63,923 nucleotides of DNA, filler included, from an uncultured bacterium (GCA_964449065.1; 3 parts of 3 records of this genome joined end to end with filler, not necessarily neighbours in it), one strand, 5' to 3'; numbered from the whole stretch's first letter, positions 9,001 to 27,000 are shown. Numbers are program-made.

Positions 9001-12000
9001 AAGAAGGGATATCATTCCTCGCAGGACGGTTTAGAAGCGATGCTGGGCAAAGAAGGCGTGACCAAATCAACCCTTCGTCCCGCCGGGATTGCAACGATTG
9101 ACGGGGTTCGGATGGATGTGGTCAGCCAAGGCGGTTTTATTCCAAAAAATACGAATATAAAGGTTGTGAAAGTGGAAGGCCGGCGGGTTGTTGTAAAGCA
9201 AGTATAGCGGCATCGAAATCAGAGCAGGAGGCGAAGCAGCATTATGTGGTTGACCATTATCACGCTTTTGTTGGTCGGGCTAATCTTTATGTGTTTTGAA
9301 CTATTTGTGCCCGGCGGTATTTTAGGGATCATCGGCGTATTTCTGATGGGGTATGGCGTATGGCTGTCGTTTGAACATTACGGATCGGTGCAGGGCTTCG
9401 GCGTATTGATATTTTGCGGCGTGGCTGTGCTGGCCATCATAATTTTTGGGATCAAAGTCCTTCCGCACACATCGTTCGGAAAGCAATTAATATTGGCGGA
9501 CAGTCAGTTAAAAACTTCGGGCTATAATTCGGAATCGTTTGATGAAGCGGCTTTGGTCGGTCAGGAAGGTATAGCGGAGAGCGACTTACGTCCGGCGGGA
9601 ATCGCGAATTTCGGGGATCAACGGCTGGATGTTGTGACAGAAGGCGAATTTGTGGAGGCGCAGCAGCGTGTCAAAATTGTACGGGTTAACGGCAACCGAG
9701 TTGTTGTTGAAACGGTCTAAAATTATCCGCGCAGAGAATCTTATGAAACCGGTTTTATTTCTTCAAAACATTACCCTGGAACCTCCGGGACTTGCGGCAT
9801 CTTTTTTAAAAAAACGGAACATACCATATGAAATCATTGACTTATATATCAATGAGGCCATCCAACATCCTCCCGGTTATTATGGTGCGGTTGTCATTCT
9901 TGGCGGGCCCATGAATGTGGATGATGAAGACAAATATCCTTATTTGCGGGAAGAAAAAGACTTTATTCGCCAATGTTATAAACAGCGTGTCCCAACATTG
10001 GGATTGTGTTTGGGAAGCCAGTTGATGGCCGCCGTTGCGGGAGCGCCGGTACGGAAAAACGAAGTGCCGGAAATCGGATGGATGGAAGTTGAACTAAATG
10101 AAAACGGCCGGGAATGCGTATTGTTTGAAGGGATCGATTCTCCGGTGCCGGTGTTTCAATGGCATGGCGATACGTTCGCGCTTCCAGATGGTGCGACGCA
10201 CTTGGCCTCCTCAAGCAATTGCCGAAACCAGGCTTTTATGATTCATGAGAATTCATTCGGCTTGCAGTTTCACATTGAGGTGAATGAAGAAGACGCGAAA
10301 GAGTGGGCGCTGGCTTATTGGGATGACGTAAGTGATAAGATGAAACCGGAAGTACAAGAATTGATAGATCATCCCAATCAAGCAAAAGCCCAAATAGTCG
10401 CCGCTGTCTCTGAACGGTTGTTTTTTAACTTTTTTTGTAAAGTGGGTAAATACAATGTTTAGAAAAAAAATAATGATACGTTTTAAGTAAAATTTACGTT
10501 GAATCGTATAGTACTGTATTTAGTGATACGATATTCTTGCACCGGATATATTGACTGGGTGCAACAGGTCAGCGGCGTGAAGTAAAAAATCAAAAAGAGG
10601 TTCCTTCTTCTCCCCCCAATGCAATGGGGGAGGTTAGGAGGGGGGTAAAAAGGGGTAAGACACTCTCTTACGAAACCGGATCAACCCTCCCCTAACCCCT
10701 CCCAGGCCTGGGAGGGGGAATCTCTCTTCAAACGGCTGACCAATTACGACCGGGCAATAAGAAACCGGTGATAAGAATCTCAGTCAAAATGGACACTTTT
10801 TTTTAAAAAACTTGTAACGCTTGGGTGGAATGGAAACACTACGTAATTAAGAAAATAGTAGGAAAAGATTATGAAAACGATTTGTACATGGGTAATGATA
10901 TTGATCACGGCTAGTGTAATGCTGAGCGGCTGCGGAGGCGGTGGAGACGAACGATCCAACCGTCGCAATTTTACCCGTCCCAATGCCGGGGGCGGCGGAT
11001 TTGAAAAGCCGGATCGGCCGCGGTTTAAGATCCCCGTAACGGTCACCCGTTTGGAGCGGGAACGCATGTATGCCTATACCCAAGAGGTGGGCAGCATTGT
11101 GCCGATTAAGCAAGTGGAGATCAAACCGGAGTACAACGGCCGGATTTATTACACCCAAAAGTGGATGGAAGGCGATGAAGTTAAAGCCGGACAAGTGTTT
11201 GCCCGGATTGACGACCGCGATTTACGAATTGATTTGCGTGACGCGGAACTCAATTTGGAAAAAGCCAAGGCGGCGGTTCATCCCGCATCCGCGCAATTGG
11301 CGCAGGCCATAAAGGATGAAGAGTTTTCCGAACGGATGTTTAAGCGGGATGCGATTTCAAAACAAGAGTGGGACAACTCAATCTTAGCTAGAATTCAACA
11401 AGAAAACCAGTATGAAGAAGCATTGAAAAATATAGAATCCGCCCGGATGCAGATGGAAAAAATTCAGCAGGAATTGGAAAAGATCGAGATTGTGGTTCCA
11501 TTTGACGGCGTATTGCTGCCGGCGGAAGAAAGCGTGAGTGCGGGACAAAGTTCCGACTCCAGCGCGATTGATTTGACATTAAATCACGGGCAAACAGTGA
11601 CCAGCGGGCAACTCTTGTGCCGGTTGGCGGATATAGAACAAGTCTATGCCGCGTTGGATGTTCCGGCGAAAGATTTGCTGGAAGTGGAAATCGGGCAAAA
11701 GGTGGAACTGGATATCTATTCACGCGTAGGGACGAATTTTGAAGGGGTTGTGCATGATATTTCAACCGGGATGAACCGAAGCACGCGTACACATACTGTA
11801 AACGTGTTGATCGCAAACGAAGGACACGAATTGCGGCCGGGAATGTTTGTCATCGCGAACATCATAACAGAAGAAAAACCCGCGGCCATCAAGATTCCAC
11901 GGGAAATCATTCAGGTCCGTAACAACCAAGAAATTGTGTTTGTGGTAAAAGAGAAAGAAGTGGAAGAGCCCTCCCGCAAACGGCTGGACCAAGACCAAAC

Positions 12001-24000: not shown

Positions 24001-27000
24001 GATTTGATGAAGGGCATTCAGGTCGTCATGCGCTATATCAGCAGCTGGCGCTGGATCTTTGTCTTTTGGAATAAAACAAGCCGGACCGCCTACCGCCAGC
24101 GAATTACCGCTTACCGTCAAAAGCCAACGCCGGATGAGCCGCTGGAAATTGTAGTGGAGTATCTAGTCCGCATTTATCAACCGCCGTTTTTGGAGCGGAT
24201 GCTGGGTAAGATTAAACGAATTTTGTCGATGAATACCTATTCAACGGCGACCGGGTTTATCCCGCAGCCGGTAGCGGCACCATCGGCTCATGCAACGCAA
24301 GCGCGCACCAAAGCGCTGGACGGCATACACGTGAATTTAGGGCCGGGGATTTATGGTCTCTTGGGGCCGAACGGCGCGGGGAAAACCACGTTGCTGCGTC
24401 TCTTAGCGGGAATAGATCAACCCACCCGCGGGTTTTTATCAGTATGCGGATACGACATGAAGACGAACGCGCGGGATATCCAAAAGCTGATCGGATATCT
24501 GCCGCAAGAGTTCGGCGTGTACACTCATTTATCCGCGGAAAAGTATTTGGATTACTTTGCGCTGATGAAGGGAATCAAAACCACGGCCGAACGCAAAAAC
24601 GCTGTGGATGCCGCGCTGGAGATGGTGAATTTGAACGAACAGCGGCATACGCCGGTCGGGCAGTTTTCAGGCGGGATGAAACGGCGCATCGGTTTGGCGC
24701 AAATCTTTGTGAAACCGCCGAAGGTGTTGATTGTGGATGAACCAACAGTTGGGCTGGATCCGATTGAGCGGGTACGCTTTCGCAATTTGCTGGTCAAATT
24801 AAGCCAAGACCGGATTGTGATTTTATCCACCCACATTGTGGATGATGTGGCGCATACCTGCAAAAACGTCGGCGTGATGAACAAAGGACGGCTGCTGTTT
24901 AACGGCAGTACATCCAACTTTGTAGAAACGGTGCAAGGCAAAGTGTGGCAAATGACTGTACCTATTGAAATGACACAAGGCGTGAATCAAGATGAATGGC
25001 GCGCGTTTCGTAAGACCTATCAAATCGTGGGACAGCATCATACCGCGGACGGCATTCATTTGCGGGTGGTTGCCGATGATGCGCCGCGGCCGGATGCGGT
25101 GAACGCGCAGCCGACGCTGGAAGACGCTTATATCTATCATACACATGTAAAAGCACAGTAAGGGCAACGTACTTCTCCCCCCCGCCTCTTATTTTCTCTT
25201 TTGGGGAGAAGGCAATACAGGTATCGCTTTATGAAAGCATAGAGTAGATTTTGATTTCAATGGTTTAGAACTAGTACTTTGTCAATCAAAAAATGACGGC
25301 TGGCTATCCGTTGTTCCCCCCTTGTTAAGGGGGGTAAGGGGGGATCGAAGCACGCTTCCAACGACGCAAANNNNNNNNNNNNNNNNNNNNNNNNNNNNNN
25401 NNNNNNNNNNNNNNTTAATTAATTAANNNNNNNNNNNNNNNNNNNNNNNNNNNNNNNNNNNNNNNNNNNNAGCACCGAACCCTCAGATAAAGCGTTGGGG
25501 GATATAGCGAAAGGCTAACACCATCTGGCTGGTAATGCTGATTTCCAACTTGATTATGCAATTTCTAATTTGGATTGTTCACTAAAATCAAATCGGCTAA
25601 CCATGATTCCTTCATTTGAATGCTAAGGGGAAAACTTTCTTCAAACGGCTGACTTATTACTTTACGGATTATGGCTCTCTTCACACCCCCTCTGTCCTCC
25701 TTACGTCGGACATCTCCCCCAAAATGATTGGGGGAGAAATGGCATCGGCAGGCAGGAAGCCTTGCACCACCATAAAAGATTTTTTGCCGTTCCTTCATTC
25801 ATAGTGAACTTTTCTATTTGAAAATGGTATTACACGCGATTGTACAAGATGCTCATATAACAAGACTTACAAAAGTGTTAGTTCGGAGTGATAAGTCCAA
25901 CGAATTCAAGAAATTCTACGATTGACTGCTCTCACCATTTTGGTGATTATTTTTAACTGCTCCGCAGTTTATAATTCTATTATATTCAGAAAGTTATGGC
26001 ATACCTTTTCAATATCAACTGCTTTTTTTAGAATCATACGCGACCTCCCACCCTTTGTATCGTCTACAAAATTGGGAGAGAAGACATCGTGTTTTCAGAT
26101 TTGACTCCTTCAGTCGATGACATTGCCCCCTGCCTCTCTTTAATATGGGAGGGGAAACAACGACAAACTCTACTTCCTCCTGTTTGCCGGTAAGACCGTT
26201 TTACGCAGCCTTACGGATTTCGGTGTAACCTCAACCATTTCGTCATCGCGGATGAAGTCGATGGCTTTTTCGAGCGTCATCGGCAGGACGGGCATTAGTT
26301 GGGTGCCTTCGTCTTTGGTAGCACTGCGCATGTTGGTGAGTTTTTTCTCTTTGCTGGCGTTGACATTCAGATCATTTTCACGATTGTGCTCTCCAACGAT
26401 CATGCCTTCATACAACTGCTCGCCCGGCGTGACAAACAGGGTGCCGCGGGGTTCGAGGTTGGAAAGCGCGTAGGTGACCGCGATTCCCTGCCGGTCGGCG
26501 ACCAACGATCCGGTGTGGCGGGTCGGAAAATCACCACGAAATTCTTCATAGCCTCCCAGGTAGGAATTGAGGATTCCGGTGCCTTTGGTGTCGGTCAAGA
26601 ACTCATTGCGGTAGCCGATGAGACCGCGCGCGGGGATAGAGAATTCCATCCGGACGCGGCCGGTGCCGTGATTGACCAAATTGATCATGCGGCCTTTGCG
26701 AATCGAGAGTTTTTCGGTGACGATACCGACGAAGTCTTCATCACAGTCGACATAAAGGTGTTCAATGGGCTCCATGGTATTGCCGTCTTTCTCGTGCATG
26801 ATAACCTGTGGGCGCCCGACGGTGAGTTCAAAGCCTTCGCGGCGCATGGCTTCGATCAGGACCACCATCTGCAATTCGCCGCGGCCTTTGACGCGGTAGA
26901 CGTTGGCGTCCTCGGTTTCTTCCACTTGAACGGATACGTTGCTGAGCGTTTCTTTGTAAAGGCGGTCGCGGATTTTGGTGGATTGCACAATCTTGCCTTC

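What a model noticed while it worked through the whole genome (the two positions that open the first line are those of the whole stretch)
10871..25161. RND efflux permease fused to an ABC ATPase domain, in a conserved MFP-RND-RND::NBD-permease cassette
g00737 (C24:20863-25161, 1432 aa) is a full-length 12-TM RND (AcrB/MdtB-like) permease that carries a complete, motif-intact ABC-transporter ATPase domain at its cytoplasmic C-terminus. It sits in a cassette with an HlyD-type adaptor (g00732), a second unfused RND paralog (g00735) and an ABC-2-type permease (N-terminus of g00736). The same fusion recurs in 23 of 25 other Hinthialibacterales genomes and in Bacteroidota, KSB1, Krumholzibacteria, Calditrichota. 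An RND pump with a built-in ATPase has not been described.
Evidence so far: pfam.tsv: ACR_tran 4-1045 (573 bits) + ABC_tran 1155-1295 (97 bits) in one ORF. All 120 best database clusters matching residues 1000-1432 carry PF00873+PF00005; 102 are 1380-1700 aa, the rest fragments. The junction is one open frame of 1429-1501 aa in 21 and cut by a contig end in 2 of 25 other genomes of the order; 0 of 9 in the rest of the phylum. Walker A, Q-loop, SGGM signature, Walker B D-E and H-loop invariant in 38 aligned members; AF2 of the C-terminal 393 aa pLDDT 88. In 43 long loci from other phyla (of 261 relatives found) an unfused RND1 (34-39% id to g00735) lies directly upstream in 42, an HlyD-type adaptor before it in 38, an OEP/TolC gene first in the one locus annotated, a [...]
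(Added by a program. Inside this text positions count along the whole contig: they may not be those of the stretch shown here. "Call 12" and the like, gene names such as g00115 and contig names such as C1 are that model's own, and its searches are not shown. The text may have been shortened before it was handed on; [...] marks where a part breaks off. The agent that wrote the report below was given it as the finding of a first reader that could run no searches.)

Follow-up and report, generated by a model that had tools for sequence, protein, structure and literature searches.

The report
RND pump fused to ABC ATPase
One subunit of an ion-driven RND efflux pump is permanently joined to one of the two ATP-burning motors of an ABC transporter, inside a seven-gene set that bacteria of several phyla keep or lose together, so two kinds of transporter thought to work separately probably form one envelope-spanning export machine.

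Summary
Confirmed. 20863-25161 is one 1432-aa frame: full RND permease plus a motif-intact ABC ATPase, fused in 23 of 25 other genomes of the order and in Bacteroidota, KSB1, Latescibacterota and Calditrichota. The unit is seven genes: TolC, adaptor, two RNDs, two ABC-2 permeases (one carrying a zinc-site-less M1 aminopeptidase fold), two ATPases. Among 301 Bacteroidales genomes the fusion, short permease and long permease (42) occur in the same genomes, and one near-closed genome keeps all seven genes in four separate places. The fused ATPase is split after its A-loop by a membrane insert. Best reading: it is the second ATPase of a heterodimeric type V ABC transporter, which it tethers to an MdtBC-like RND-adaptor-TolC pump. 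ATP replacing the ion gradient is less likely, because ABC-free pumps share the same altered relay. No description found in ten searches. This scan noted the system before on other genomes. No experiment exists.

The parts
10871..12406 (+). Periplasmic adaptor (MFP), 511 aa, with a lipoprotein-like signal (LSGC) and acidic low-complexity inserts
   Evidence: HlyD_D23 E 4e-22; TIGR01730 RND_mfp 166.9 bits, above cut-off 94.9; sequence
12476..13351 (+).
   Evidence: ABC_tran 110.6 bits; closest ATPase in the genome to the fused one; all motifs intact in 38 of 38
13690..14589 (+).
   Evidence: ABC2_membrane_2 E 5.5e-8, above cut-off; homologue in 17 of 20 order loci and 68 of 68 distant loci with enough flank
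14712..18035 (+). Unfused RND permease (RND1), relay D-N / N-N, R and T kept
   Evidence: ACR_tran 783 bits; motifs; RND1 clade support 100
18053..20803 (+). Long ABC-2-type permease (TMD-L, 916 aa): 7 predicted TM helices, then a periplasmic M1-aminopeptidase fold without HExxH (KNYIK at 635; WLEE at 655)
   Evidence: Profile hits to M1 peptidases E 7e-13; AF2 pLDDT 83, pTM 0.79; Foldseek IRAP/ERAP/PepN E 1e-19 to 1e-21; no HExxH in 38 of 38 and 14 of 14; positions
20863..24000 (+). RND2 part of the fusion (aa 1-1046): D402-S403 in TM4, P956-N957-S958 in TM10, R988 and T995 kept
   Evidence: ACR_tran 4-1045; best PDB hit MdtB E 2e-69, with DD and KKN aligned to DS and PNS; positions
24001..24177 (+). 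Linker after TM12 (extended helix, Trp-rich helix) and first ATPase strand with the A-loop Tyr1105; in the 1570-aa class this stretch holds two extra TM helices
   Evidence: Alignment; hydropathy; AF2 secondary structure
24178..24309 (+). Insert of about 40 aa inside the ATPase (amphipathic helix plus loop); about 180 aa with four predicted TM helices in most of the Bacteroidota/KSB1 class
   Evidence: A-loop to Walker A spacing 22 in free ATPases, 61-75 in the order, mostly 202 in the distant class
24310..25161 (+). Rest of the fused ABC ATPase (NBD2): Walker A 1168, Q-loop 1211-1215, FSGGM 1268, Walker B DE 1292-1293, H1324, C-terminal domain ending PTLEDAY
25270..25370 (.). High-copy dispersed repeat at which contig C24 breaks; the window continues with unrelated contigs after an N spacer, so the TolC gene (G000:C390) is outside the window
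   Evidence: 196 blastn hits in the genome; window built from C24, C25, C135; TolC homologue

Best explanation
The seven genes encode one hybrid envelope exporter. A heterodimeric type V (ABC-2) transporter is built from TMD-S, TMD-L, the free ATPase NBD1 and the ATPase NBD2 that hangs on RND2. Through that covalent link, and through the membrane insert in NBD2, the ABC transporter is held beside a heteromeric RND1/RND2 trimer that works with the adaptor and TolC channel. ATP drives the ABC step: moving a substrate across or out of the inner membrane, or releasing it from the catalytically dead aminopeptidase-like domain that captures it in the periplasm. The RND, probably still ion-coupled and mainly through RND1, then takes it over and expels it across the outer membrane. 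Shown: the fusion, the gene set, co-occurrence, intact ATPase motifs, the dead peptidase site. Inferred: that NBD2 pairs with NBD1 on the two permeases (about 0.75), one RND2 per trimer as in MdtB2C, hand-over of substrate (about 0.5), and a peptide-like or lipopeptide-like substrate (about 0.3).
For: Two permeases and two ATPases per cassette: all seven genes in 16 of 20 order loci and 19 of 20 distant loci; of the 5 others 3 are cut by contig ends and 2 are extra copies of the fusion gene. 31 of 34 distant genomes give exactly two ATPase hits, one free and one fused, 28 of them about 14 kb apart on one contig. Two different gene orders keep the same seven genes. In one sample of 301 Bacteroidales genomes the fusion junction is found in 41 (one weak hit dropped), TMD-S in 40 of those 41 and in no other, TMD-L in the 41 plus one contig-cut cassette. 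Near-closed genome G174 keeps all seven genes in four distant places. NBD2 is a DrrA/GldA/NosF-type ATPase, groups with NBD1 against six other ATPases of this genome (SH-aLRT 99), and keeps the residues after the Q-loop that in NBD1 line the permease-docking groove (role of the groove recalled). Both permeases keep a conserved coupling-helix-like segment. TMD-L resembles the widespread ABC permease/M1 aminopeptidase proteins. Seven ABC-free adaptor-RND-outer-membrane-protein operons and one adaptor-RND pair have the same D-S/N and N-N relay, so that relay needs no ATPase. Division of labour between two RND paralogues is known for MdtB2C (PMC4338810, passages).
Against: No experiment and no direct evidence of NBD2-permease contact. 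Both RNDs lack the equivalents of AcrB D408 and K940, and whether this D-N/N-N class moves protons is not shown here. RND2 of the order is further altered (Pro in TM10 in 18 of 20) and evolves faster than RND1. Related genomes are not independent, so co-occurrence overstates. Extra fusion genes stand outside the cassette in G022 and G005, although both genomes also hold the permease. The substrate is unknown.
Confidence: 0.65

Rival explanations
1. ATP-powered RND: the same heterotetrameric ABC unit transports nothing itself but acts as a motor whose ATP cycle is passed through membrane contacts to the RND trimer (mechanotransmission), replacing or supplementing the ion gradient; the dead peptidase domain senses or delivers cargo.
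For: Covalent link kept across phyla and reinforced by up to six extra TM helices around and inside NBD2. Both RNDs lack two of the three canonical charged relay residues; RND2 has Pro in TM10 in the order. Nearest bacterial solved ATPase with its permease is NosF of NosDFY, recalled as a non-transporting motor.
Against: The same relay occurs in ABC-free RND operons. D407, R971 and T978 equivalents are kept, and 40 of 65 distant RND1 have a second Asp in TM10. The AF2 model of TM7-12 plus NBD2 has pLDDT 88 but pTM 0.65, which fits two well-folded domains without a fixed mutual position. The order has lost the extra TM helices.
Confidence: 0.18
2. Two RND2 subunits in one trimer bring their NBD2 domains together as a homodimer that powers or gates the RND directly, while NBD1 alone serves the two permeases as a separate ABC transporter.
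For: NBD2 has every motif needed for a canonical dimer. Extra fusion genes occur outside the cassette. The free ATPase is adjacent to TMD-L in the distant class and stays with it when the operon breaks up.
Against: NBD2 keeps the conserved post-Q-loop surface as NBD1 does, and the RND has no recognised coupling helix. It does not explain why the permeases are gained and lost with the fusion.
Confidence: 0.08
3. The fusion only co-localises or co-regulates two independent transporters (or NBD2 is an ATP sensor that gates the RND), with no shared substrate.
For: Regulatory domains fused to transporters, some ATP-binding, are common (PMC10710835, passages). The link may be flexible.
Against: Full catalytic motif set conserved in 93 fused sequences bar a few pattern misses and in 19 distant representatives with 1-2 misses; strict joint retention of all seven genes.
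Confidence: 0.08
4. The fusion is an artefact (lost stop codon or misassembly).
For: The window genome is a fragmented assembly, 515 contigs.
Against: Same junction in 23 of 25 order genomes, 72 of 80 distant loci as one frame of 1480 aa or more (6 others cut by contig ends, 2 broken) including cultured strains; the first ATPase strand lies upstream of an insert, so the domains are interlocked.
Confidence: 0.01

Closest known systems
MdtABC-TolC (E. coli) and MuxABC-OpmB (P. aeruginosa)
   Same: One adaptor, two paralogous RND permeases, one outer-membrane channel; MdtB is the best PDB hit (E 2e-69); unequal roles of the two subunits are known for MdtB2C (PMC4338810 passages; PMC7015380 passages).
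   Different: No ABC parts in MdtABC; MdtB has DD and K where RND2 has DS and N; both RNDs here score far below the MdtB/MdtC cut-offs.
YbhG-YbhFSR (E. coli ABC-2 heterodimer with an adaptor)
   Same: Two different permeases served by two ATPase domains, with an adaptor (PMC13739795 and PMC7190983, search listing and abstract start).
   Different: Its two ATPases are fused to each other, not to an RND; no RND, no peptidase-like domain.
Type V ABC transporters DrrAB, GldAFG, NosDFY
   Same: ATPase family: best NCBIfam hits DrrA and GldA, best bacterial structures TM_1403, TM0544, NosF; short permeases with a coupling helix.
   Different: All hits are below the curated cut-offs; none has an ATPase fused to an RND or split by a membrane insert.
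ABC transporter permease/M1 family aminopeptidase fusion proteins (uncharacterised, automatic names)
   Same: ABC-2 permease followed by an M1 fold; nearest named ESM Atlas clusters at 0.95.
   Different: Here the zinc motif is gone in all 52 copies checked and the protein is part of the RND cassette; no paper on the parent family was found.
MacAB-TolC and type I secretion systems
   Same: ATP-driven transporter coupled to an adaptor and TolC (PMC8277102 passages).
   Different: They use type VII or type IV ABC folds and no RND; that review names only these two ABC groups in tripartite assemblies.

Membership tests
HAE1/AcrB-type tripartite RND pump | Full RND fold, 12 TM helices with two periplasmic domains | tested here: met
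   ACR_tran profile 2-1020 of 1021 covered; 11 helices pass a hydropathy threshold; TM7-12 modelled with high confidence
HAE1/AcrB-type tripartite RND pump | Adaptor and TolC-type partner genes | tested here: met
   Adaptor in the window; OEP next to the fusion in 17 of 20 order loci; on contig C390 in this genome
HAE1/AcrB-type tripartite RND pump | Canonical proton relay D407-D408-K940-R971-T978 (AcrB numbers recalled) | tested here: not met
   D-S/N and N in both RNDs; R and T kept. Same deviation in ABC-free operons
HAE1/AcrB-type tripartite RND pump | Curated family cut-offs (TIGR00915, NF000282, NF033617) | tested here: not met
   313.6 against 940; 370.5 and 506.1 against 1250
HAE1/AcrB-type tripartite RND pump | Efflux driven by the ion gradient alone | not testable with these tools
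   Needs transport assays
MdtABC/MuxABC | Two paralogous RND genes with one adaptor | tested here: met
   RND1 directly upstream in 74 of 74 distant loci with flank; separate RND1 and RND2 clades
MdtABC/MuxABC | Orthology to MdtB/MdtC | tested here: not met
   Scores 275-441 against cut-offs 1584-1774
MdtABC/MuxABC | 2:1 heterotrimer | not testable with these tools
   Needs native MS or cryo-EM
Type V (ABC-2) transporter | ATPase with Walker A, Q-loop, signature, Walker B D-E, D-loop, H-loop | tested here: met
   (38 free, 93 fused)
Type V (ABC-2) transporter | Two ABC-2 membrane domains with coupling helices | tested here: met
   TMD-S ABC2_membrane_2 above cut-off; TMD-L only weak hits (E 1.5e-4 in one homologue; NosY E 0.6; Atlas); conserved coupling-helix-like segments. 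TMD-L is the weaker assignment
Type V (ABC-2) transporter | The fused ATPase docks on a permease | not testable with these tools
   Inferred from gene count, co-occurrence and surface conservation; needs pull-down or structure
M1 aminopeptidase (TMD-L ectodomain) | M1 fold | tested here: met
M1 aminopeptidase (TMD-L ectodomain) | HExxH zinc motif | tested here: not met
   0 of 38, 0 of 14; KNYIK at the expected place in the window protein

The most novel reading that the evidence does not exclude
This is the first ATP-powered RND pump: a type V ABC unit, locked to the trimer by a fused and membrane-anchored ATPase, drives the RND cycle mechanically, and exchangeable pseudo-peptidase permease subunits choose the cargo.
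Probability: 0.18. Interest if true: 0.92.

Novelty: categorically new. Interest (0 to 1): 0.76.

Why it matters
RND and ABC transporters are treated as alternative engines for TolC-type channels; the review passages read name only type IV and type VII ABC transporters in tripartite assemblies and no RND-ABC hybrid. A machine that hard-wires both would make two open questions testable: whether an inner-membrane transporter can hand substrate straight to an RND pump, and whether an RND can run on ATP. It also gives an ABC ATPase split by membrane helices and a role for the unstudied permease/M1-fold family. Every module belongs to a known family; what is new is the assembly. It is present in cultured Prolixibacter, Draconibacterium, Maribellus and Mariniphaga strains and in 41 of 301 sampled Bacteroidales genomes.

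Tried and rejected
Complex prediction of the fused ATPase region with both permease domains of the Prolixibacter cassette: no answer; it is not used for or against binding. Sequencing runs: no RNA holder listed; two DNA runs of one study gave only short contigs, none listed across the junction or to the TolC gene. C24 and C390 ends show no exact overlap, only a shared repeat, so adjacency of TolC in this genome is inferred from relatives. Promoter and terminator scan: at chance level (10 against 15.6; 27 against 20.7). Single-sequence searches with TMD-L found nothing in Pfam, NCBIfam or PDB; the profile did. Profile comparison of TMD-S with the TMD-L membrane part: not significant. The careful ATPase tree did not finish; the quick tree was used, with six outgroups on long branches; the RND tree is FastTree only. 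The coupling-helix pattern for TMD-S of the order matched 2 of 18 rows, and the lipobox pattern was loose, so neither is counted. 'ATP replaces a lost proton relay' was lowered after the control. Literature searches with no description of the fusion: (two were for background). The library lacks most subscription journals; TCDB, and the Willson 2019 review on transporter fusions (seen only as a reference), could not be read; bioRxiv supplements are closed.
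Full report
Observation. The window joins three contigs; the cassette lies on C24, which ends at 25370. 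The frame 20863-25161 gives 1432 aa with ACR_tran at 4-1045 and ABC_tran at 1155-1295. All 120 listed homologues of the junction region carry both families. In the order, 22 of 25 other genomes match across the junction, 21 in frames of 1429-1501 aa and one in a contig-cut frame; G001 is fused in a frame open at both ends; G011 and G016 gave no match. A scan of one genome per species with a junction alignment returned its best 80 loci from Bacteroidota, KSB1, Calditrichota, Latescibacterota, Zhuqueibacterota and others, several from cultured strains; 72 of 80 hold one frame of 1480 aa or more, 6 are cut by contig ends and 2 are broken. The fusion is real.

The unit is seven genes. In the window the order is adaptor, free ATPase NBD1, short ABC-2 permease TMD-S, RND1, long permease TMD-L, RND2::NBD2. 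In relatives a TolC-type gene follows; here it lies on contig C390, starting 350 bp from its end. All seven are seen in 16 of 20 order loci; two are cut by contig ends and two are second copies of the fusion gene. In 20 distant genomes the order is NBD1, TMD-L, TolC, adaptor, RND1, RND2::NBD2, TMD-S, complete in 19, one cut. Among the 80 loci with enough flank, TMD-S follows in 68 of 68, RND1 precedes in 74 of 74, and TMD-L precedes TolC in 64 of 64. Of 34 genomes searched with NBD1, 31 give one free and one fused hit and 3 give one hit; in the one of these 3 that I opened, NBD1 and TMD-L are present but in pieces. G060, from another order of the phylum, has the cassette with many frameshifts.

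Co-occurrence. In one even sample of 301 Bacteroidales genomes the junction profile hits 41 strongly (42 with one weak, stop-containing hit that I dropped). TMD-S hits 40 of these and no other genome; the miss is a contig end. TMD-L hits the 41 plus G358, whose cassette is cut after the adaptor. Of 16 further loci opened, mostly the more divergent hits, 14 show all seven genes, one is cut, and one, G174, has the fusion alone. G174 is nearly closed, and it keeps the other six genes in three other places: TolC-adaptor-RND1, NBD1-TMD-L, and TMD-S. Kin are not independent, but joint retention after the operon has broken up is hard to explain without shared function.

The fused ATPase. Walker A, Q-loop, SGG signature, Walker B D-E, D-loop and H-loop are kept in 38 free and 93 fused sequences, with at most one pattern miss per motif and class. 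It is of the DrrA/GldA/NosF type that serves type V permeases, though below every curated cut-off. Fused ATPases form one side of a branch (SH-aLRT 92) and group with NBD1 (99) against six other ATPases of this genome (quick tree); the RND2 parts form one clade and RND1 another, each split the same way into the two classes (FastTree 100). One ancient fusion fits best. The distance from the A-loop Tyr to Walker A is 22 residues in free ATPases, 61-75 in the order and mostly 202 in the distant class. There the insert holds four predicted TM helices and two more follow TM12, giving 18. In the window protein the model shows the first strand, an amphipathic helix, a loop, then the second strand (pLDDT 88, pTM 0.65). 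A profile of the insert region found 137 clusters among 1.84 billion representatives; all 19 of 1500 aa or more are RND-ATPase fusions, and the shorter ones that I printed (380 aa or more) fit fragments of it. The residues after the Q-loop are as conserved in NBD2 as in NBD1; that this surface takes the permease coupling helix is recalled knowledge.

The permeases. TMD-S passes ABC2_membrane_2. TMD-L has seven membrane helices and a periplasmic part with the M1 aminopeptidase fold but no HExxH in 52 of 52 copies; the distant class adds a Golvesin-like C-terminal domain. Its nearest named Atlas clusters are ABC permease/M1 aminopeptidase proteins. Four of the 42 genomes carry extra TMD-L genes without cassette neighbours, which suggests an exchangeable, cargo-choosing subunit (inference).

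The RND relay. Both RNDs keep the first TM4 Asp and, in nearly all, the TM11 Arg and Thr, but have Asn or Ser for the second Asp and Asn for the TM10 Lys; RND2 of the order has Pro before it in 18 of 20, and 40 of 65 distant RND1 have an Asp after it. Eight single-RND operons without ABC genes in the same phylum (L152-L160 less L154 with an outer-membrane-protein-sized gene, L154 without) have the same D-S/N and N-N pattern. The deviation therefore predates the fusion and is no sign that ATP replaced the gradient; nor does it prove proton coupling.

Mechanism. Two permeases need two ATPases, and the cassette supplies exactly two, one of them on RND2. The simplest model is a TMD-S/TMD-L/NBD1/NBD2 transporter tethered to an RND1/RND2 trimer with adaptor and TolC, the ABC step feeding the RND step (0.65). 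Unequal RND subunits have a precedent in MdtB2C (PMC4338810, passages). Rivals are an ATP-driven RND by mechanotransmission (0.18), an NBD2 homodimer on the RND (0.08), and mere co-localisation or ATP sensing (0.08). Contacts, stoichiometry, direction and substrate are all inferred.

Novelty. Eight targeted searches of the open library found no description. Of the papers: passages of PMC8277102 (first 300,000 characters held), PMC4338810, PMC7015380, PMC10710835, PMC8121099 (plus supplement search rows) and PMC10434189; listings and abstract starts of the rest. Subscription papers and TCDB were out of reach. Databases give the protein only automatic names. This scan recorded the same system before on other genomes; I had seen the seven-gene set and the insert before or alongside reading those notes, and they are not counted as support. 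The parts are of known families, but the system fails the membership tests of each known pump type, and no known system joins an ABC transporter and an RND pump; I rate it categorically new in architecture, with mechanism unproven. Interest 0.76.

Noticed in passing
window 25270-25370 and 13561-13647 (also about 13350-13650): High-copy dispersed repeat: 196 blastn hits in the genome, many at contig ends; it sits between cassette genes and breaks the assembly.
   Followed up: partly
L047 (G022:C97) 7156-13935: Second, stand-alone RND2::NBD2 gene behind an ECF sigma factor, a probable anti-sigma and a 390-aa protein without family; the genome also has the full cassette. G005:C264 (L050) is another second copy.
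   Followed up: partly
L194-L201 (G261, G190, G278, G165): Extra HExxH-less TMD-L genes without neighbouring cassette genes, up to four extra in G261.
   Followed up: partly
L190 12980-17077 (G215): Fusion of 1365 aa lacking about 210 residues of the second RND half in an otherwise complete cassette; natural deletion or assembly error not decided.
   Followed up: partly
L180, L181 (G147, G265): Insert in the ATPase shortened to about 108 residues, an intermediate between the two classes.
   Followed up: no
window 9650-10462: Class I glutamine amidotransferase-like gene upstream of the adaptor in 9 of 20 order loci; absent from the distant loci examined.
   Followed up: partly
window 7774-9720: NfeD-type ClpP-like membrane protease gene followed by a short NfeD gene.
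   Followed up: no
L152-L160: Ordinary single-RND operons with a non-canonical D-S/N, N-N relay; the coupling ion of this RND class seems worth testing in itself.
   Followed up: partly
window 25415-25426 and 50817-50828: TTAATTAATTAA spacers between N runs mark contig joins; genes across them are not neighbours.
   Followed up: yes
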